Counted from the stretch's first letter, positions 44,648 through 54,381 are shown. The stretch is 64,000 nt of DNA from Cyanobacteria bacterium P01_F01_bin.56 (GCA_039185935.1 JBCDAJ010000012.1:2023-66022), one strand, 5' to 3'. Program-made: numbers and translations. The notes: generated by a model not told the origin, from the letters alone.

Positions 44648-44815
44648 TTAGCTATGACAAGTGCAGCCTGTATGACCACAGCCAGACCCTTCGGTATGAC
44701 CGTTGGCACAGGCATCACTGCAGTAGTACTGACTGGCTTTTTCAATAGCTTTGCCGGTATCGACAATACACAAGCAAGACTCACAAGCACATTTCATTTG
44801 AGTAACCGTCGTCAT
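44648..44815 (-). CDS. smtA: Metallothionein SmtA (55 aa; not in ORF track)
   Basis: Manual translation MTTVTQMKCACESCLCIVDTGKAIEKASQYYCSDACANGHTEGSGCGHTGCTCHS*; GGAG RBS. Confidence 0.97.
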   Translation of the reverse strand: MTTVTQMKCACESCLCIVDTGKAIEKASQYYCSDACANGHTEGSGCGHTGCTCHS

Positions 44816-44844
44816 GGCAATCTCCTAAACCAATAGAATAAACA

Positions 44845-44901
44845 AACATCTGAACAAGTGTTCATGAGTTAATATAACACTTGAATGTTTGTTCAGGTAT
44901 T
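44845..44901. promoter_or_regulatory. Two SmtB/ZiaR 12-2-12 operator sites
   Basis: AACATCTGAACA-AG-TGTTCATGAGTT (44845-44870) and AACACTTGAATG-TT-TGTTCAGGTATT (44876-44901). Confidence 0.85.
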
Positions 44902-45091
44902 TGTTTAAAGCATCTTTAGCTAGGACTCATACCAAGGCCCCTCTTGATCCTCCAGCTCTTGAGAGAGGTTGCATCTGATTGCCGCAAGATTAAGGATATG
45001 GGGTCAAAATTTGCTCGACTGTGTAAATCACTTAGCATTGGTTAAGCTTTAGCGAGAAACGCTGCTGTTACTGTTGGATATCGACTGGTTG

Positions 45092-45445
45092 ATGTCGGAC
45101 TCTCAAAATAAGACGTTGCCTGAGATCGGAGCAGATCCTCCGGTTGGGGAAATTCTGAGTGTCGAAAAGGCCCAGCGGATGGCTGAGTTCTTTGGTGTGT
45201 TGGGTGATCCCAATCGCTGGCGAATTTTGTCTGCACTGGCATCTCAGGAATTGCGCGTAGGGGAGTTGGCTGAGGCCGTTGACATGAGTGAGTCGGCTGT
45301 TTCTCACCAATTGCGCGTGCTGCGCAATATGCGGCTGGTTAGTTACCGCAAGCGGGGCCGCAGCGTTTATTACTGCTTAAAAGACGACCACATCTTTAAT
45401 CTTTACCGGGAAGCCTCAGAACACCTGGATGAGCCTGAAGACTAA
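45092..45445 (+). CDS. smtB: ArsR/SmtB metal-sensing repressor
   Basis: [43 protein letters not shown] alpha5 zinc site; divergent from smtA. Confidence 0.92.
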
Positions 45446-45593
45446 CGCAGCGAGAATTTTGTGGATCAGTTCCTGGTCTCAGCACTTTGGAATAGATCTT
45501 GCCGGGGTGAGGCGATCGCCAACCTTTGAGCAGCCCCACTCCACATCAGGTTTGAGGCCCACAGCCTGTGTGATGCAACAGTCCTCTTATGCC

Positions 45594-46400
45594 TCATCGA
45601 GGCGACATCTCATTCAACCGTCCGGCCAGGTTGCTGAGATTATCTTCCAGATGGCTACAGGTGACGACGATCCGCTCCCAGCCAGTAGGAATGATGGCCT
45701 GAACATGAGCTAGATTGTTGCGCAAGGTTTCCATTTCTTTAATCGCCCGACGCGCTTCTTTCCGCGTTTTCCAGCCGATCGCCTGGCGAACTTCCTCGTC
45801 GTAAGACAGGATGTGGCCTTTATCGCCGTACTGGAGGCAGTCCACTAGGTCAGGCTTTTGCCCCCGGCGGCGACGGTCTTGCTGCAGGTTTTGGGCTTTG
45901 GCCAGTCGTTGCTCAGACAACAGACTTTGCCAACTATCGTCGGGATACCGGCGGCGAATCAGGTTGGTTAATAACATTTCGCTCAGCGTAATGAGGCCAA
46001 ATAAAAACATCCGCATCGGCGGTTTTTCCAGGTCTTCTAGGGCCACGATCGCGACTACTTCATTCAGGGTGGTGACGAAACATTGCTGATTAATCGATAG
46101 CGATTTCACCACGTCAATCAGACTGGCCGTATCGGCCACCAAATCGTCTGCTGGGGTGAAAGGATGCAAATATTCCTCACAGGTGCCCGCAGCCAATTCC
46201 TCTCGTCGTACATACCCTCGCACCAGCCCATCGACGCGAATGCCCACCCGGTCAAAATCTTGGTCAGCCATAAAAGCCTTGACTTTGCCCGCCTGGGCAT
46301 CGACGTCAAAAGACACTAAGGGCACGGCAATATCCATTGCTGTGAATCCCTCAAAAAACATGCGGCGCAGGCGAGAGGTTTGTAGCGGTTGTGAGTACAT
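45594..46400 (-). CDS. CBS-pair + Swt1-like HEPN domain protein (putative nucleotide-regulated RNase)
   Basis: N-terminal tandem CBS-like repeats (TAMDIAVPLVSFD..; LVADTASLIDVV..VAIVALEDL); C-terminal helical domain with RNNLAH = HEPN Rx4H. Confidence 0.7.
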   Translation of the reverse strand: MYSQPLQTSRLRRMFFEGFTAMDIAVPLVSFDVDAQAGKVKAFMADQDFDRVGIRVDGLVRGYVRREELAAGTCEEYLHPFTPADDLVADTASLIDVVKSLSINQQCFVTTLNEVVAIVALEDLEKPPMRMFLFGLITLSEMLLTNLIRRRYPDDSWQSLLSEQRLAKAQNLQQDRRRRGQKPDLVDCLQYGDKGHILSYDEEVRQAIGWKTRKEARRAIKEMETLRNNLAHVQAIIPTGWERIVVTCSHLEDNLSNLAGRLNEMSPR

Positions 46401-46622
46401 AGCAAATTGTCTTCGGACACTGAGACCATCAACGCCAGGGCATTGGTGCAGACTTTCCAGGATACTGTCTGCGTCTACCCACTATCCACTACTGCCCGCG
46501 ATCGCCCCCAGCGATTTCTGGGCCAAAACCAAAACGGAGCCCAAACCCGACAAAATCATGTCGCCGGTTTGCGCATTGAGTTGAGCTGGCTATGATTTGA
46601 GAAAGTTGCTCATGAATAAATC

Positions 46623-49600
46623 ATGGTGGAATGGCTAGCGATTTGGGGCGGGGCGGCGCTGTTGGTCTTTCGGCCCATTCTCGAAGACATTGCTAAGGAG
46701 GTTGCTAGAGATGCAGCGTCAAGCTATGTTGGCCAGTGCTTTAAGAGCGTCTTTTCCGTTATTTACAAGGACCCGCTGACGAAAGCGACGGGGCAGGCGC
46801 TGAAAGAACTGCTGCAACTCATTGAGGACGAGTTGATTCGGGCTGAGATTGAAGAAGAGCGGCTCCAGGGTTGGGTCCCTGATGTGAAGCAGTTCGTATA
46901 TCAGGCGTCGGTGCGAGATGCCATCGCTGCGCTGTTTTTGCAGTCCGACTATTATCTCGACCCCCAAGTTTTCATGACGGCCTGGCAGCAGCTTGATCAT
47001 CCCCTTGATATGCCAGACGGGTTTTCCTGGCCTTACGTGGCGAAGCGCTTTGCGGCCAAAGTGGTGGCGATCCGCCAATCTTCGACAGAGCTGCAGGATA
47101 CCTTTGCCTCTCTGGCTCAAGCCCAAGATTCTCAAGCCCTGCAAGAGCTGGCCGGACTGCCCCCCGAGTTTGATCTGGAAACCTATCGCGAGGCGCTGGT
47201 CGAGCGCTACGGCACGGTGGACTTGGCGAGCCTCGACACGACGGGGGCCTATTACGAGGTGCGGCTGTGGAGCGTGTTTGTGGCGCAGTCGGTGCGGGAG
47301 TGCCATGAATATGACCCGCAACTGCTAGAAGTGCCGAAGGATCAGCTGCTGCGGCTAGTGGAAGCCGGGGAACTGGATGCCGCCCAACTGGCCGAGTCAG
47401 AAAAGCTGCACGACGAACGGCGACAGGCCTACATCAACCAAACCCCTAAGCCCGTGCTGGCAGTCACCGATGATGCGACCATTCCACGGCAGGTCATCCT
47501 GGGAGATCCGGGGTCGGGCAAGTCATCGCTGTTGCGCTATCTGGCGCTGCAGTGGGCGCGTATTAATGACGCCAACCAGCGCTATACCCAGCCGCTGCCG
47601 CTGCTGATTGAGCTGCGGGAGTATACTCGCTGGCACTGCCCCAGCCACAAAGGCTTTTTGAAATATTTGCACGAAGCCTCGACTTGGCATCGGCTCAATC
47701 AACAAACGCTAAAGCACCTGCTGGAGCAACCCAACCGCGTGGTGGTGCTGCTGGATGGCCTAGACGAAGTGTTTGACCCGGCTGAGCGAGAACAGGTGGT
47801 CAACGATATTCATCGCTTTAGCAATGAGTATAAGCAGGTGCGCCTGGTGGTGACATCGCGGGTGGTGGGCTATCAGCCCCATCGGCTGCGCAATGCCGAG
47901 TTTCGCCACTTTATGCTGCAAGATCTGGACGATGACCAGATTGGCACCTTTTTGGATCGCTGGCATGAGGTAACGTTTGATCAGGCGCAGCAGACGGAAG
48001 CCGAAAGCAAGCGAGAGCGGCTGGATAAAGCGATTAAAACCTCGAAATCGATTCGGCAGTTGGCGGGGAATCCGCTGCTGTTGACGATGATGGCGGTGTT
48101 GAATCGACATCAGGAATTGCCGCGAGATCGCGTTGACCTCTACCAGCAGTGCTCGCGCCTGCTGCTGCACCAGTGGGATACGGAACGAGCACTAGGAGAT
48201 TTTCCAGGGCTGAGTGCGGAGATTGGCCTGCGGGAAAAAACGGAGATCCTGCGGGTCGTGGCGTATGCCATGCAGACGCGGGTATCGGACGAATCTCGCG
48301 CCAATTACATCGATGGCGACACACTGACCGGACTGATCGAAGGTTATCTCCGCATGGAATTGCGATTTGACCAAGCGCGAGCAGTGGCACGGGCATTAGT
48401 GGAGCAATTGCGAGCCCGCAATTTTATTCTGTGTGATCTGGGTGCAAACAGTTACGCCTTTGTACACCGAACGTTTCTAGAATATTTCTGCGCGGCTGAA
48501 ATTGTTCAACAGTTCAACGTTACGAAGACGCTGAATAAAGACGGATTAATCAACTTGTTTGACGAACATTGCCGCCATGATGATTGGCGTGAGGTACTAC
48601 GTCTGATTTGCGGTCAAATCGATGAACATTTTGTAGGTCAGGTCGTTGAGCACTTAGCTACGCAAACTGACTTGTCAAACTGGGATGGCAACAAGCGGCT
48701 ACCAGAGTTAGTGCTGGCGATTGAGTGTTTGAGCGAGGTTAGAAGTATCACTAGATTAGAAACAGCTTGCGAAGTACTTTTAGAGTGTTCAAACAAACTC
48801 TGCAAAAAAGTAGATAGTTGGGAGATATCACGCGAGATTCGCACTGCATTCAGAGAAATTGGAGATCGTTGGCCGACTGAAGCCGTGAAATCTTCAGTAG
48901 TTGTTGAACCAGTCGGTTTGAGCTATGTCGGTTTTTCGGTCTGGGTTTACATATTGGCCTATGTGACTGGTAGAGCCAGTTTGTTGCGACAGATTGGAAA
49001 TACCCATGAAAGTGATTTTGCGCGATTTGGTGCAGTCGAAGTAATTGCAGACATAGATGATTCAGAGGACAGTCGGAATTGGATTGTTGATCGCGCTCAC
49101 GCAGACCATGACTATTTCGTTCGTAGGAAATCTTTGCAGGCCTTAGCAGACAAATGGCCCGATGAGACTACGCGAGCATTGCTCACCCAGCGTGCCGTCG
49201 ACGATGAACACGGATCTCCCCGCAGTACGGCGTTGCAGGCCTTAGCGGACAAATGGCCCGATGAGACCACCCACACCTTTCTCACCCAGCGCGCCGTCGA
49301 CGATGAACACGCAGATAACCGCAGCACGGCGTTGCAGGCCTTAGCGGACAAATGGCCCGATGAGACTACGCGAGCATTGCTCACCCAGCGTGCCGTCGAC
49401 GATGAACACGGATCTCCCCGCAGTACGGCGTTGCAGGCCTTAGCGGAGAAGTGGCCGGAGGAGACGACGCGCAGCTTCCTCGCCCAGCGTGCCGTCGACG
49501 ATGAAGACGCAGATCCCCGCCGTGTGGCGTTGCAGGTCTTAGCGGACAAATGGCCGGAGGAGACGACGCGCAGCTTCCTGACCCAGCGCGCCGTCGACGA

Positions 49601-50381
49601 TGAAGACGCAAATAACCGCCGCGCGGCGTTGGAGGCGTTAGCCGAGACGTGGCCGGAGGAGACGACGCGCAGCTTCCTGACCCAGCGCGCCGTCGACGAT
49701 GAAGACGCAGATCCCCGCCGTGTGGCGTTGCAGGTCTTAGCGGACAAATGGCCGGAGGAGACGACGCGCAGCTTCCTGACCCAGCGCGCCGTCGACGATG
49801 AAGACGCAGATCCCCGCCGCGCGGCGTTGGAGGCGTTAGCCGAGACGTGGCCGGAGGAGACGACGCGCAGCTTCCTGACCCAGCGCGCCGTCGACGATGA
49901 AGACGCAGATCCCCGCCGCGCGGCGTTGGAAGCGTTAGCCGAGACGTGGCCGGAGGAGACGACGCGCAGCTTCCTGACCCAGCGCGCTGTCGACGATGAA
50001 GACGCAGATCCCCGCCGTGTGGCGTTGCAGGCCTTAGCGGAGAAATGGCCGGATGAGACCACCCGCACCTTCCTCACTCAGCGCGCCGTTAAGGATAGAG
50101 ACGAAAATACCCGTGGCGCAGCCTGGACTGCTCTAGGCAAATTGCATTCTGAGTTTGGTCGCCTTTTACCCACACAAGATCTAGATGGCGTCGGGCCGTA
50201 TTTCGATCCCCTAGAGCCGGTCTCTCAAGATCACATCGAGGCAGCGGCTGAAAGGGCAGGCATTTCTCCAGAAGAGATTGATGCTCAGGTTGCCTCACTT
50301 TCTGCCCATTGCGGTTGGGATATTACGGTGGGAGCTAAAGCTTCAGTTGACCGGTCTGCTACCGCTGCGCAGGAGAATTAA
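46623..50381 (+). CDS. NACHT/STAND NTPase with N-terminal helical domain and C-terminal HEAT-like repeats (bacterial NLR-like)
   Basis: Walker A GDPGSGKS, Walker B LLDGLDE, VVTSR, NPLLLTM, FVHRTFLEYFCA; ten 33-aa repeats. Confidence 0.92.
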   Translation: MVEWLAIWGGAALLVFRPILEDIAKEVARDAASSYVGQCFKSVFSVIYKDPLTKATGQALKELLQLIEDELIRAEIEEERLQGWVPDVKQFVYQASVRDAIAALFLQSDYYLDPQVFMTAWQQLDHPLDMPDGFSWPYVAKRFAAKVVAIRQSSTELQDTFASLAQAQDSQALQELAGLPPEFDLETYREALVERYGTVDLASLDTTGAYYEVRLWSVFVAQSVRECHEYDPQLLEVPKDQLLRLVEAGELDAAQLAESEKLHDERRQAYINQTPKPVLAVTDDATIPRQVILGDPGSGKSSLLRYLALQWARINDANQRYTQPLPLLIELREYTRWHCPSHKGFLKYLHEASTWHRLNQQTLKHLLEQPNRVVVLLDGLDEVFDPAEREQVVNDIHRFSNEYKQVRLVVTSRVVGYQPHRLRNAEFRHFMLQDLDDDQIGTFLDRWHEVTFDQAQQTEAESKRERLDKAIKTSKSIRQLAGNPLLLTMMAVLNRHQELPRDRVDLYQQCSRLLLHQWDTERALGDFPGLSAEIGLREKTEILRVVAYAMQTRVSDESRANYIDGDTLTGLIEGYLRMELRFDQARAVARALVEQLRARNFILCDLGANSYAFVHRTFLEYFCAAEIVQQFNVTKTLNKDGLINLFDEHCRHDDWREVLRLICGQIDEHFVGQVVEHLATQTDLSNWDGNKRLPELVLAIECLSEVRSITRLETACEVLLECSNKLCKKVDSWEISREIRTAFREIGDRWPTEAVKSSVVVEPVGLSYVGFSVWVYILAYVTGRASLLRQIGNTHESDFARFGAVEVIADIDDSEDSRNWIVDRAHADHDYFVRRKSLQALADKWPDETTRALLTQRAVDDEHGSPRSTALQALADKWPDETTHTFLTQRAVDDEHADNRSTALQALADKWPDETTRALLTQRAVDDEHGSPRSTALQALAEKWPEETTRSFLAQRAVDDEDADPRRVALQVLADKWPEETTRSFLTQRAVDDEDANNRRAALEALAETWPEETTRSFLTQRAVDDEDADPRRVALQVLADKWPEETTRSFLTQRAVDDEDADPRRAALEALAETWPEETTRSFLTQRAVDDEDADPRRAALEALAETWPEETTRSFLTQRAVDDEDADPRRVALQALAEKWPDETTRTFLTQRAVKDRDENTRGAAWTALGKLHSEFGRLLPTQDLDGVGPYFDPLEPVSQDHIEAAAERAGISPEEIDAQVASLSAHCGWDITVGAKASVDRSATAAQEN
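49143..50132 (+). repeat. Ten tandem 99-bp coding repeats (33-aa HEAT/PBS-lyase-like)
   Basis: Unit LA(D/E)(K/T)WP(D/E)ETTR(S/A)(F/L)LTQRAVDDE(D/H)xxxRxxAL(Q/E)A. Confidence 0.97.
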
Positions 50382-50528
50382 TCAGTGATCAGGGCACAAA
50401 AAATCAGAGACGCAGCTAGCTGCGATCGCTTTCCCGATAGTCTGGCGATCTCAGGCTTTACGATGCAATCGTTTGACTCGGTAAAATTAAATTACCCAAT
50501 TCCAAAAAGCATAGGCATGGAAAGTCGT

Positions 50529-51178
50529 ATGGCTGAAGTTAAACCGTTGCCAATCTTTCACCCCGATACTTGGGTGACTGCTACTTGGCCACAATTTCTG
50601 GCTACTGCCGATAGCGAGACCTATCAAACTGGTCAAGCGTATTACGACCACGGCTATATGAGGATTGAAATGGCACCTCTGGGCTCAGCGCCCGGCCAAG
50701 ATAATTCTCTGATATCAACCGTCGTGACCCTGTATGGACTGGCGAAGAATTTACCCGTCAAGGAGCTGATCAATACCAGCTTTCGTAAGCCGGAGGTGCA
50801 TGAATGTCAGCCTGACTTGGCGTATTATGTCGGCTCTGACCTGCCCTCACTGCCCCGTGATAATGCGCCAATAGATATCGACCAGTTTGGCGCTCCGAAG
50901 CTGGTCATTGAAGTGGGACCACCTCCTTCAGCGATGACTTGGGCAGCAAGCGGCTGCTCTACGAACAATTAAGCGTTGAGGAATATTGGGTGGTGCATAC
51001 TCAGGCCAAAGAGGTCATTGCCTTTGCCATTGCCGACGGTCGCAGTGGCCGCATTGCAACTTCACAGGTGCTGCCTCAGCTCGATTTGGCACTGGTGAAT
51101 GAGGCTTTGCAGCACAGTGTTGCTGAAGATACCAGCGCGATTGGGCGGTGGCTCTTGCAGACTTATCAAAACGGATAA
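50529..51178 (+). pseudogene. Uma2-family endonuclease, frameshifted
   Basis: YDHGYMRIEMAP, CQPDLAYY, PKLVIEVG, then continuation in another frame (S)FSDDLGSKRLLYEQLSVEEYWVV; 1-bp deletion near 50918. Confidence 0.85.
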
Positions 51179-51564: not shown

Positions 51565-52950
51565 TTAGTACTTGTAGCTATCGGTCTTGAACGGACCGTT
51601 CATCGGTACGTTGATGTACTTGGCCTGCTTTTCGGTCAACTGAGTAACCACGCCACCAAAGCCTTCCACCATGTAGCGGGCGACTTCCTCGTCCAAGTGC
51701 TTGGGCAGTACTTCCACCGTGATGGCAGCAGCCTTTTCGCTAGCGGGCTTGTCGGCAAATTTGCGCTCAAAGAGGAACATTTGCGCCAAGACCTGGTTCG
51801 CAAAAGAACCATCCATAATGCGGGAGGGGTGACCGGTGGCGTTACCCAGGTTCACCAAGCGACCCTCAGCCAGCAGCAGCAAGAAATCATCCTGATCGTC
51901 GCTGCGGTAGACCTGGTGCACTTGGGGCTTCACTTCTTCCCAGCGCCAGTTTTGACGCATGTAGGCGGTGTCGATTTCGTTGTCAAAGTGGCCGATGTTG
52001 CAGACCACTGCGCCGCGCTTCAGCGCTGCCAGCATGTAAGCATCACAAACATTCACGTTGCCCGTAGCGGTCACTAACAGGTCGGTGTTGCCGAGCAAAT
52101 TGCGGTCAATACAGCTCTCGGTGCCGTCGTTCTGCCCGCCAATGTAAGGAGACACCACTTCAAAGCCGTCCATGCAAGCCTGCATCGCGCAAATGGGGTC
52201 ACATTCTGCCACCTTCACGATCATGCCTTCTTGACGCAGGGACGCGGCAGAACCTTTGCCCACGTCGCCATAGCCGATAACTAGGGCTTTTTTACCAGCC
52301 ATCAGGTGGTCGATCGCGCGCTTGATCGCGTCATTGAGGCTGTGGCGGCAGCCATACTTATTGTCGTTCTTCGCCTTGGTCACGGAGTCATTGACGTTGA
52401 CGGCGGGGACTTTCAGCTCGCCGTGCTCCAGCATTTCTAGCAGCCGGTGTACACCGGTGGTGGTTTCCTCAGTAACGCCGTGGATGCTATCCAGCATATG
52501 AGGATACTTTTCGTGAATATGGCCGGTCAGGTCGCCACCGTCATCCAAAATCATGTTGGCATCCCACAGGTCACCGGCAGGGGTGCGGCAGGTTTGCTCA
52601 ATACACCACATGTACTCGTCTTCGGTTTCCCCTTTCCAGGCATAAACAGGAGTACCGGCAGCGGCGATCGCGGCGGCGGCATGATCCTGGGTAGAGAAAA
52701 TATTGCAAGAAGACCACCGCACCTCAGCGCCGAGCGCTTGCAAGGTTTCGATCAACACGGCAGTTTGAATCGTCATGTGGATGCAGCCAATGATTTTGGC
52801 CCCTTTGAGGGGTTGGCTGGCGCGGTACTTTTCGCGGATTTTAATCAGGGCGGGCATTTCGCTCTCAGCGATCGCAATTTCCTTGCGCCCCCAATCAGCC
52901 AGAGCAATATCGGCAACTTTGTAATCTTGCTTCAGAACTTGTGCAGTCAT
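51565..52950 (-). CDS. ahcY: Adenosylhomocysteinase (proteobacterial type)
   Basis: [69 protein letters not shown]. Confidence 0.97.
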
Positions 52951-53002
52951 TGAATCCTTTGAGTTAATTGAATGTCAGTGATTTATTAAAAGGTGACGGA
53001 GC

Positions 53003-54157
53003 TTAAAGGGCGGCCTTCAGCAACTCCGCTTTGTCCGTCTTCTCCCAGGTGATATCGGGCAGTTCGCGACCAAAGTGGCCGTAAGCTGCAGTCTGACGAT
53101 AAATTGGACGACGTAAATCCAGCATATCGATTAATCCCTGGGGACGCAGATCAAAATGCTCGCGCACCAGTCTAACAATCTGCTCGTCAGAAATCTTGCC
53201 TGTCCCAAACGTGTTGATCGAAATCGATGTCGGCTGTGACACCCCAATCGCGTAAGAAACTTGGATTTCGCAGCGTTCTGCTAGCCCAGCTGCGACAATA
53301 TTTTTTGCGACATAGCGTCCGGCATAGGCCGCCGAGCGATCGACCTTAGACGGATCTTTGCCAGAGAACGCTCCACCCCCGTGACGGGCCATGCCGCCGT
53401 AGGTATCGACAATAATTTTGCGTCCGGTCAAGCCACAGTCGCCCACCGGTCCCCCAATGATGAACTGCCCAGTGGGATTGATGTGATACTGCGTGCCCAC
53501 ATGAAACCACGCTTGGGGCAGTACCGGCTTGATGATTTCTTCCATCACCGCTTCGCGAATGTCGCCGAGGGCAATATCCGGTTCGTGCTGAGTAGACAAA
53601 ACGACCGCATCAACGGCGACCGGTTTGCCATCTTCATAACGTAACGTCACCTGACTCTTGGCATCTGGACGTAGCCAAGGCAAAACACCTTGTTCACGCA
53701 GAGCCGCCTGACGCTCGACGAGGCGATGGGCATAGTAAATTGGTGCGGGCATCAAAACATCGGTTTCATTTGTGGCGTAGCCAAACATCAAACCCTGGTC
53801 GCCCGCACCCAAGTCTTTGTTAGCGGCTTCATCAACGCCCATCGCAATGTCTGAAGACTGCTTTCCGATCGCGTTCAATACAGCACAGGAGTCACCATCA
53901 AAGCCCACATCAGAGCTGTTGTAGCCGATATCTAGAATAACGTTACGCACAACATCTTCGAGATCGACATAGGTACTGGTGCGCACTTCACCCGCGATCA
54001 CTGCCATTCCCGTTTTGACCAGAGTTTCGACGGCCACGCGGGCATGAGCGTCGTCTTTGAGAATGGCATCCAAAATGGCATCTGAGATCTGGTCTGCCAT
54101 TTTGTCGGGGTGGCCTGCGGATACCGATTCCGAGGTAAAAATGCTGTATTCACTCAT
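53003..54157 (-). CDS. metK: S-adenosylmethionine synthetase (proteobacterial type)
   Basis: [40 protein letters not shown]; ATG at 54157. Confidence 0.97.
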
Positions 54158-54381
54158 GCTGTCAACGAGGGTAATGAGGATAGAACAAAGAAAGAGAATA
54201 GTCTCATATCCTATCTTTTTGCCCAACAATTTTGAAGCAATGTGGAAGCTTAACAAACAAATACAACGGAATTCTTCAATTTAAGGGAGCTGTACGCCAA
54301 TCACATCTCATCGCCCCGCTTACCGATTCACTCTGCCACAGCCATGAATGGGTACTTGATTGCTTGGCCGCTCCCTAATCT

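What the first reader, a model, noticed from the sequence alone, without database searches (positions are those of the whole stretch)
45594..46400. Stand-alone CBS-HEPN protein as a possible energy-charge or nucleotide-gated RNase
Seen: two CBS-like repeats followed by a helical domain with RNNLAH. Known: CBS pairs bind AMP/ADP/ATP, SAM or cyclic dinucleotides, and HEPN dimers cleave RNA. Inference: an RNase switched by adenylate status or a second messenger, for dormancy or defence. It may function independently of the NACHT gene.
Basis: partly seen in the sequence, partly recalled or inferred. Interest (0 to 1): 0.65.

Follow-up and report, generated by a model that had tools for sequence, protein, structure and literature searches.

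The report
Stand-alone CBS-pair HEPN ribonuclease gene
This cyanobacterial gene encodes a small protein with a nucleotide-sensing CBS module joined to a HEPN RNA-cutting domain; the design was predicted in 2013, and a distant E. coli relative was shown in 2026 to defend against phage, so it is a new member of a known but biochemically unstudied kind.

Summary
Window 45594-46400 (-) is a real 268-aa gene under purifying selection (dN/dS 0.10). Residues ~20-125 fold as a CBS pair (AlphaFold pLDDT 86; the 50 listed Foldseek PDB hits are CBS-pair proteins or CBS-containing enzymes and transporters). Residues 126-262 are an all-helical Swt1-type HEPN domain. Its RNNLAH motif is conserved in 113-114 of 114 family representatives.

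The interpretation, a nucleotide-gated RNase independent of the NACHT neighbour, is reasonable but not new. Anantharaman et al. 2013 listed CBS(+HD) fusions of Swt1-like HEPN and made the same prediction. DefensePredictor (2026) showed that E. coli DS-11, a one-gene CBS+HEPN system, defends against phage and needs both domains. Profile comparison places DS-11 as a distant collinear relative (hhalign 87%).

- The gene travels alone. It is in 3 of 14 congeners, and a 91%-identical copy sits in an unrelated neighbourhood without a NACHT gene.
- In 31 of 67 species the gene is fused or adjacent to an HD phosphohydrolase (CCA-enzyme-like HDIG, or SpoT-like HD_4). This points to a 3'-phosphorylated nucleotide ligand or to RNA-end repair. 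The window copy has no such partner.

The ligand, RNA target and physiological role remain untested.

The parts
45594..46400 (-). Whole gene: 268-aa CBS-pair + Swt1-like HEPN protein (stop codon included)
   Evidence: ORF list; 359 homologues at 58-100% identity listed; dN/dS 0.10 against the congener
46191..46343 (-). CBS repeat 1 (residues ~20-70). F49 aligns with DS-11 Y157, the residue predicted to contact adenine. The motif G62-Y-V-R-R-E-E68 has an acidic residue at the ribose position.
   Evidence: AF2 secondary structure; Foldseek CBS hits; hhalign register against the DS-11 family; position 49 is F or Y in 76 of 114
46026..46169 (-). CBS repeat 2 (residues ~78-125). The family motif is G-I-V-T-R-x-D-L-x-K; here it reads A-I-V-A-L-E-D-L-E-K. 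D123 is kept, but the Thr and Arg are replaced.
   Evidence: column counts D123 104/114, T120 84/114, R121 71/114; translation
45615..46025 (-). Linker helix (K126-P-P-M-R130-M-F-L-F134-G) and all-helical HEPN domain (residues 126-262)
   Evidence: Pfam HEPN_Swt1 at residues 145-251, E 9.1e-6; R130 111/114, F134 112/114, E141 111/114; HEPN-only AF2 model pLDDT 88.8
45705..45722 (-). RNNLAH = the R-x4-H catalytic motif of HEPN RNases (R227, H232)
   Evidence: Translation; R227 114/114, H232 113/114, A231 111/114; aligns with IRNDVMH (R330, H335) of DS-11
45816..45842 (-). Family-specific signature D-C-L-Q-Y-G-D-K-G inside the HEPN domain; function unknown
   Evidence: Translation; C188 113/114, D193 112/114, K194 109/114; this block has no conserved counterpart in the DS-11 profile
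46401..46496 (-). About 96 nt of upstream region that moves with the gene (probable promoter and 5' UTR)
   Evidence: blastn shows shared DNA with the congener ends at 46496; the three cyanobacterial copies align over the last ~100 nt before the ATG. No strong sigma-70 consensus on the gene's strand in this upstream region.

Best explanation
The gene encodes a self-contained, horizontally acquired regulator-plus-effector protein. The N-terminal CBS pair is the sensor. The C-terminal Swt1-type HEPN domain is a metal-independent endoribonuclease. By analogy with other HEPN RNases and CBS proteins (inference), two protomers pair so that the two R-x4-H motifs form one composite active site. A nucleotide-derived ligand bound in the CBS cleft changes the dimer geometry through the invariant linker helix (KPPMRMFLFG) and switches RNA cleavage on or off. 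The protein works without the neighbouring NACHT gene and without the HD phosphohydrolase that accompanies about half of its relatives. Its role is either single-gene abortive-infection defence, as shown for the distant relative DS-11, or stress-linked RNA decay that reads a nucleotide pool. The present evidence does not separate these two roles.

Shown here: fold, motifs, conservation, gene mobility and HD association. Inferred: dimerisation, RNase activity, ligand gating and physiological role.
For: - **CBS-pair fold:**
- **HEPN assignment:** HEPN_Swt1 profile. R227 and H232 are invariant over 114 representatives that share only 30-52% identity with the window protein.
- **Ligand-site residues:** the ribose-binding Asp of CBS2 is kept in 104 of 114, and position 49 is aromatic (F or Y) in 76 of 114.
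- **Relation to DS-11:** collinear remote homology from the CBS pair to the RNxxxH motif (hhalign 87%, E 4e-6, 204 columns; family HMM 22.7 bits). DS-11 defends E. coli against phage and loses defence with Y157A, R330A or H335A (PMC13092281).
- **Earlier prediction:** the same one was made for CBS(+HD)-HEPN in PMC3710099.
- **Functional gene:** dN/dS 0.10.
- **Independence from neighbours:**
- **HD association:** 31 of 67 species loci have a fused or adjacent HD hydrolase of two unrelated types, in two sister clades. This ties the module to nucleotide or 3'-phosphate chemistry.
Against: - No biochemical data exist for this family, and no ligand is known even for DS-11.
- Pfam CBS does not hit the window protein.
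- The window copy has Ala and Leu where the family has the phosphate- and ribose-contacting Thr120 and Arg121, so its ligand site may differ.
- Foldseek on the HEPN domain alone found nothing significant. The best hit was Csm6 HEPN at E 0.66, and a profile search of PDB sequences was empty.
- For a defence role: contexts are mostly housekeeping, there is no phage copy, and only six distant haloarchaeal plasmid copies were found. Also, 60-73% identity across phyla is unusually conservative for a defence gene.
Confidence: 0.62

Rival explanations
1. Dedicated single-gene anti-phage abortive-infection system of the DS-11 type. Infection changes an adenine-nucleotide signal, the CBS pair releases the HEPN RNase, and RNA destruction stops the phage. 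This is a sub-case of the best explanation that fixes the role as defence.
For: DS-11 has the same core architecture and is a remote homologue, and it is validated as defence. The gene is patchy: 3 of 14 congeners and 0 of 47 other genomes of the family and class. It has moved across phyla as a single-gene cassette. Here it sits beside NACHT and Uma2 genes. A distant haloarchaeal homologue sits on a plasmid near an integrase.
Against: There is no PADLOC match beyond a weak tail hit. The gene is absent from 50,697 phage records and nearly absent from plasmids. Neighbourhoods are mostly housekeeping and syntenic within Desulfuromonadales. Sequence conservation across phyla is very high. DS-11 carries an extra ~130-aa N-terminal domain that is missing here.
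Confidence: 0.35
2. Physiological stress regulator. The CBS pair reads an alarmone or a 3'-phosphorylated nucleotide ((p)ppGpp, (p)ppApp, 2',3'-cNMP), or energy charge, and tunes bulk or specific RNA decay for dormancy. In relatives the HD partner degrades the signal or heals the 2',3'-cyclic phosphate ends left by HEPN cleavage.
For: Ten of 67 loci have an N-terminal SpoT/RelA-type HD_4 fusion (TIGR00691, E 5e-18). Twenty-one of 67 have an HDIG domain or gene most like the HD of the CCA-adding/repair enzyme (NF008137, E 5e-12). One relative is fused to a PAS-histidine kinase. Contexts are housekeeping and purifying selection is strong. CBS pairs that bind ATP together with ppGpp are among the structural hits (7pmz). 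The window's genome encodes a SpoT and a solo 194-aa HD_4.
Against: The link is by association only. The window copy and its closest clade have no HD partner, and the HDIG type is absent from the whole genome. The patchy distribution within the genus is odd for a core stress regulator.
Confidence: 0.3
3. Effector arm of a split NLR-like system: the divergently transcribed NACHT-HEAT protein (46623-50381) senses infection and activates the CBS-HEPN RNase.
For: The two genes start 222 bp apart, head to head, with a Uma2 nuclease-like gene downstream.
Against: The 91%-identical orthologue in a congener has no NACHT neighbour. Shared DNA stops 96 nt upstream of the gene. No NACHT gene lies in the six other annotated homologue loci. 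NACHT relatives occur in four congeners that lack the CBS-HEPN gene, and none was found in G007, which has it, although G007 is only 71% complete.
Confidence: 0.05
4. Catalytically inert RNA- or nucleotide-binding protein: the HEPN domain serves only as a binding or dimerisation scaffold, as proposed for eukaryotic Swt1.
For: Foldseek on the HEPN domain is inconclusive. Eukaryotic Swt1 HEPN is thought to be inactive (PMC3710099).
Against: R227 and H232 are conserved in 114 and 113 of 114 representatives, with N/D228 and A231 also conserved. The 2013 survey scores the CBS/HD bacterial versions as 'active'. The equivalent R and H are essential in DS-11.
Confidence: 0.05

Closest known systems
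CBS(+HD) fusions of Swt1-like HEPN described by Anantharaman, Makarova, Burroughs, Koonin and Aravind 2013 (examples alr3009; gi 118580987 of Pelobacter propionicus)
   Same: The order is the same, CBS pair then Swt1-type HEPN with an active R-x4-H, and the predicted logic is the same: nucleotide sensing controls RNA stability. The window protein's close relatives in Desulfuromonadales carry the HD as a fusion or as the next gene.
   Different: The window copy has no HD domain, no HD neighbour, and no HDIG homologue anywhere in its genome. I could not fetch the two named example proteins, so identity of family with them is inferred from architecture and taxonomy, not tested.
DS-11 of DefensePredictor (E. 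coli WP_000257686.1, 365 aa; Science 2026, PMC13092281)
   Same: CBS pair followed by Swt1-like HEPN in one polypeptide. The homology is collinear and remote from the CBS pair to the RNxxxH motif (hhalign 87%, E 4e-6). F49 sits at the position of Y157, and R227/H232 at R330/H335.
   Different: Pairwise BLAST finds nothing. DS-11 has an extra ~130-aa N-terminal domain and lacks the DCLQxxDK signature. It lies in a different, mostly proteobacterial family. Defence has been shown for DS-11 only.
Ligand-gated HEPN RNases of type III CRISPR (Csm6/Csx1: CARF sensor + HEPN)
   Same: The logic is the same: an N-terminal nucleotide-binding sensor domain gates a C-terminal dimeric HEPN RNase. The best, though non-significant, structural hit of the HEPN domain is Csm6. 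PADLOC gives a weak CARF_HEPN tail hit.
   Different: The sensor is a CBS pair, not CARF. There is no cas context and no known cyclic-oligoadenylate source.
HEPN-MNT (HepT-MntA) toxin-antitoxin modules
   Same: A small HEPN RNase with an R-x4-H motif. HEPN toxins appear among the weak fold hits (8xdj, 8xeh, 6m6u).
   Different: There is no MNT nucleotidyltransferase neighbour in any locus examined. Control is expected to be in cis through the CBS pair rather than by AMPylation from an antitoxin.

Membership tests
CBS pair (Bateman module, Pfam PF00571 x2) | Two tandem beta-alpha-beta-beta-alpha repeats packed as a pair | tested here: met
   AF2 model, pLDDT mostly 86-97 over this region. The 50 listed Foldseek PDB hits are CBS-pair proteins or CBS-containing enzymes and transporters, probability 1.00, TM up to 0.72, rmsd 2.3-3 A.
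CBS pair (Bateman module, Pfam PF00571 x2) | Match to the Pfam CBS profile | tested here: inconclusive
   The window protein has no hit at E<=1. Twenty of 66 family members hit it (best 3.9e-8).
CBS pair (Bateman module, Pfam PF00571 x2) | Ribose/phosphate motif G-h-h-T/S-x-x-D at the end of each repeat (as I recall the motif) | tested here: inconclusive
   The family consensus of CBS2 is G-I-V-T-R-x-D (D 104/114, T 84/114). The window has A-I-V-A-L-E-D: the Asp is kept, the Thr and Arg are replaced. CBS1 reads G-Y-V-R-R-E-E.
CBS pair (Bateman module, Pfam PF00571 x2) | Binding of an adenosyl or other nucleotide ligand | not testable with these tools
   Needs thermal shift, ITC or a co-crystal.
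HEPN superfamily, Swt1-like family (PF18731) | Conserved R-x4-6-H catalytic motif | tested here: met
   RNNLAH at residues 227-232; R 114/114 and H 113/114 across the family.
HEPN superfamily, Swt1-like family (PF18731) | Profile match above Pfam's curated cut-off | tested here: inconclusive
   The window protein scores 26.4 bits against a 27.5-bit cut-off, E 9.1e-6. Most close homologues carry a precomputed PF18731 hit, and 34 of 66 diverse members hit at E<=0.01.
HEPN superfamily, Swt1-like family (PF18731) | All-alpha HEPN fold similar to solved HEPN structures | tested here: inconclusive
   The domain-only model (pLDDT 88.8) is all-helical. The best Foldseek hit is Csm6 HEPN, but at E 0.66 and TM 0.45; other HEPN toxins appear at E 3-7. 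No PDB sequence relative was found.
HEPN superfamily, Swt1-like family (PF18731) | Metal-independent endoRNase activity | not testable with these tools
   Needs an enzyme assay.
DS-11 (CBS-HEPN phage defence, DefensePredictor) | Homologous CBS pair + HEPN core | tested here: met
   Profile-profile hhalign 87.1%, E 4e-6, 204 columns with catalytic motifs in register. This is remote only: BLASTP finds nothing.
DS-11 (CBS-HEPN phage defence, DefensePredictor) | N-terminal ~130-aa domain preceding the CBS pair | tested here: not met
   The window protein starts about 20 residues before CBS1.
DS-11 (CBS-HEPN phage defence, DefensePredictor) | Protection against phage | not testable with these tools
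   Needs plaque assays.
CBS-HEPN-HD module (2013 survey; relatives found here) | HD phosphohydrolase fused or encoded next to the gene | tested here: not met
   The window locus is 'solo'. No HDIG homologue in the 99.9%-complete genome. Only SpoT and a distant solo HD_4 lie elsewhere. It is met in 31 of 67 relatives' loci.
HEPN-MNT toxin-antitoxin | Adjacent MNT nucleotidyltransferase antitoxin | tested here: not met
   The neighbours are SmtB/ArsR and NACHT here. No conserved neighbour other than HD turned up in 67 loci.
Split NACHT/NLR defence system | Co-conservation of sensor NTPase and effector | tested here: not met

The most novel reading that the evidence does not exclude
The CBS-Swt1-HEPN family is the RNase output of a pathway that signals through a 3'-phosphorylated nucleotide. 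The CBS pair binds an alarmone-type ligand ((p)ppApp, (p)ppGpp or a 2',3'-cyclic/3'-phospho nucleotide). The two independently recruited HD hydrolases (SpoT-like HD_4 and CCA-enzyme-like HDIG) act as built-in signal erasers or RNA-end healers. Solo copies such as this one read the cell-wide pool directly. That would connect the stringent or toxin-alarmone response to direct RNA cleavage, and would name the unknown ligand class of DS-11-type defence.
Probability: 0.2. Interest if true: 0.7.

Novelty: new member of a known kind. Interest (0 to 1): 0.38.

Why it matters
No ligand or RNA target is known for any CBS-HEPN protein. The authors of DS-11 state that the adenine derivative "remains to be discovered". 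This family is large (456 clusters at E<=1e-30), compact (about 270 aa) and unusually well conserved. Its HD_4 and HDIG fusions narrow the list of candidate ligands. That makes it a convenient biochemical entry point for learning how a CBS sensor switches a HEPN RNase. For this particular genome the finding is an ordinary accessory gene. It also removes support for reading the adjacent NACHT gene and this gene as one system.

Tried and rejected
- **Solved structures by sequence:** a single-sequence search gave only spurious repeat-protein hits. A profile of the HEPN domain found nothing real.
- **Foldseek on the HEPN domain alone:** no significant hit.
- **NCBIfam:** no model.
- **PADLOC:** only a 12.6-bit tail hit to CARF_HEPN.
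- **DS-11 comparison:** BLASTP and hhalign of the narrow alignment against the single DS-11 sequence found nothing. Homology appeared only with a broad family HMM and profile-profile comparison.
- **Conserved neighbours:** a ~490-aa gene downstream in Acidobacteriota loci looked, by my reading of its sequence, like an MltF-type periplasmic binding-protein/transglycosylase, that is, lineage synteny rather than a partner.
- **Phages and plasmids:** no phage match. Only six haloarchaeal plasmid copies at about 23% identity.
- **Promoter and terminator scan:** nothing beyond chance.
- **NACHT-effector reading:** considered and rejected.

Full report
**Observation.** Window 45594-46400 on the minus strand is a 268-aa ORF with an ATG start. 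RNNLAH is residues 227-232 (nt 45705-45722). Pfam gives one hit: Swt1-like HEPN (PF18731), residues 145-251, E 9.1e-6, 26.4 bits against a 27.5-bit cut-off. There is no CBS hit even at E<=1. NCBIfam has no model, and PADLOC gives only a 12.6-bit tail match to a CARF_HEPN model.

**Fold.** AlphaFold2 on a 30-sequence alignment gave a confident model (mean pLDDT 86.3, pTM 0.78). It has two beta-alpha-beta-beta-alpha units between residues ~20 and 125, followed by helices only. Foldseek against the PDB listed only CBS-pair proteins or CBS-containing enzymes and transporters among its 50 rows. Examples are CorC/CNNM 7cfh (E 3.6e-6), MJ0922 2p9m (TM 0.70, rmsd 2.3 A) and OpuCA with c-di-AMP 5ks7 (TM 0.72). 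Twenty of 66 relatives do hit Pfam CBS, and 34 of 66 hit HEPN_Swt1.

A separate model of residues 125-268 (pLDDT 88.8) is all-helical. Its Foldseek search was not significant: the best hit was the HEPN domain of Csm6 at E 0.66, and HEPN toxins appeared at E 3-7. A profile search of PDB sequences found nothing real. The HEPN call therefore rests on the sequence profile and the catalytic motif, not on fold matching.

**Family and conservation.**
- The word-indexed search found 359 homologues, mostly ~271 aa. Those listed are 58-73% identical across Desulfuromonadales, Verrucomicrobiota and Competibacterales.
- The exhaustive profile search found 2183 clusters at E<=1e-3 and 456 at E<=1e-30.
- In 114 representatives that share only 30-52% identity with the window protein, R227 is kept in 114 and H232 in 113, with L226, N/D228 and A231 also conserved.
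- Other near-invariant residues are R130, F134 and E141 (linker and first HEPN helix), W157, R165, R176, and the signature D-C188-L-Q-x-x-D193-K194.
- In CBS2 the family motif is G-I-V-T-R-x-D-L-x-K (D123 in 104 of 114). The window copy keeps the Asp but has Ala and Leu in place of the Thr and Arg.
- The gene is under purifying selection: dN/dS is 0.10 against the 91%-identical congener copy.

**What is already known.** The HEPN survey of Anantharaman et al. 2013 lists, within Swt1-like HEPN, the fusion 'CBS and HD (alr3009), active'. [quoted passage not shown]

DefensePredictor (Science 2026, PMC13092281) validated DS-11, a one-protein E. coli system with CBS and HEPN domains. Y157A in the CBS domain and R330A or H335A in the HEPN domain abolish defence. 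The authors conclude that an undiscovered adenine derivative regulates the nuclease. Their own HHpred assigns DS-11 a CBS pair at 134-241 and HEPN_Swt1 at 252-359.

Pairwise BLAST between DS-11 and the window protein finds nothing. A broad family HMM scores DS-11 at 22.7 bits across the CBS-HEPN junction. Profile-profile comparison of the two families gives 87% probability, E 4e-6, over 204 collinear columns. LRNNLAH aligns with IRNDVMH, and F49 aligns with Y157. DS-11 is thus a distant relative with the same core plus an extra N-terminal ~130 residues. A literature search found no other paper on CBS-HEPN proteins.

**Independence from neighbours.**
- In the window the gene lies between smtB/arsR-smtA (44648-45445) and a divergent NNH2-NACHT-HEAT gene (46623-50381), which is followed by a Uma2-like gene.
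- The gene is present in 3 of 14 genomes of the genus and in none of 47 other genomes of the family and class.
- In the congener G011 (titled Leptolyngbya sp. SIOISBB) the 91%-identical copy sits between MscS and PLD-type genes near a GHL5 gene, with no NACHT gene.
- blastn shows that the only shared DNA is window 45553-46496, that is, the gene plus ~40 nt downstream and ~96 nt upstream. The upstream ~100 nt is conserved among the three cyanobacterial copies.
- Six other homologue loci with Pfam-annotated neighbours show no NACHT gene and no shared neighbour.
- NACHT relatives occur in four congeners that lack the CBS-HEPN gene.
- In the tree the cyanobacterial copies group with a Verrucomicrobia copy and a Competibacterales copy (support 100/99), which shows cross-phylum transfer.

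**HD association.** Sixty-seven species loci were retrieved and tallied:

| State of the locus | Loci |
|---|---|
| ~188-aa HDIG gene immediately downstream on the same strand | 17 |
| HDIG fused at the C-terminus | 4 |
| HD_4 domain fused at the N-terminus | 10 |
| Solo, including the window copy | 36 |

- The HDIG partner is most like the HD domain of the multifunctional CCA-adding/repair enzyme (NF008137, E 5e-12; PDB 3wfo).
- HD_4 is the RelA/SpoT hydrolase domain (TIGR00691, E 5e-18).
- The two HD types mark two sister clades (support 97/90). The window's solo clade is nested in the HDIG-associated clade.
- The window's genome has no HDIG homologue. It does have a SpoT and a separate 194-aa HD_4.
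- Because solo forms are common and conserved, the HD is an accessory, not an obligatory antitoxin.
- From my own knowledge of these enzyme classes, both HD types act on 2'/3'-phosphate esters. I therefore infer either that the CBS ligand is a 3'-phosphorylated nucleotide that the HD erases, or that the HD heals the 2',3'-cyclic phosphate ends left by HEPN cleavage. Neither is tested.

**Role.** Evidence for defence is the DS-11 precedent, the patchy and mobile distribution, and the NACHT and Uma2 genes next door here. Evidence against a purely defensive role is the mostly housekeeping and syntenic contexts, no phage copy and only six distant haloarchaeal plasmid copies, and high cross-phylum conservation. 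I leave defence and stress-linked RNA decay as near-equal options.

**Verdict.** The gene is a new member of a known, biochemically uncharacterised kind.

Noticed in passing
window 46623-50381 (+): A 1252-aa NNH2-NACHT protein. Its C-terminal third is a run of near-identical ~33-aa HEAT-like repeats (LTQRAVDDEDADPRRxALxALAxxWPEETTRSF). It ends in a wHTH-Hsp90_Na-associated domain and is followed at 50385-50972 by a Uma2-like gene.
   Followed up: partly
window 44648-44815 (-) and 45074-45445 (+): A prokaryotic metallothionein (SmtA-type, PF02069, E 8e-25) with a divergent ArsR/SmtB-type repressor, immediately downstream of the CBS-HEPN gene. The congener copy of the CBS-HEPN gene does not have this pair beside it.
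   Followed up: partly
window 51565-54256 (-): S-adenosylhomocysteine hydrolase and SAM synthetase genes lie side by side about 5 kb from the CBS-HEPN gene. This is probably coincidental, since the CBS-HEPN neighbourhood is not conserved.
   Followed up: no
L012 (own genome contig C113) 1318-3331: A stand-alone 194-aa SpoT-type HD_4 protein lies divergent from two ORFs that I recall as Csx3-like. The second ORF carries a P-loop (GGPPNSGKS). This could be a ring-nuclease or alarmone-hydrolase pairing.
   Followed up: no
P0207 (860 aa, representative library): A relative with the architecture HD_4 - CBS pair - HEPN - PAS - histidine-kinase ATPase. This ties the module to two-component signalling.
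   Followed up: no
L003 / L004 2971-4657: In the Competibacterales loci a reverse-transcriptase gene (RVT_1) overlaps a Band_7 gene about 2 kb from the CBS-HEPN homologue. This may be a retron- or DRT-like defence pair.
   Followed up: no
L080 (Natrinema caseinilyticum plasmid NZ_CP100447.1) 5977-6801: Haloarchaeal megaplasmids carry ~23%-identical full-length homologues annotated only as 'CBS domain-containing protein'. This one lies near a phage-type integrase, a VWA protein, an M48 protease and a TIGR02391 protein.
   Followed up: partly
DefensePredictor supplement (PMC13092281, file 3): A second E. coli 'CBS domain-containing protein', WP_001532511.1, is 263 aa, the length class of this family. 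It is predicted defensive but has no DS name.
   Followed up: no
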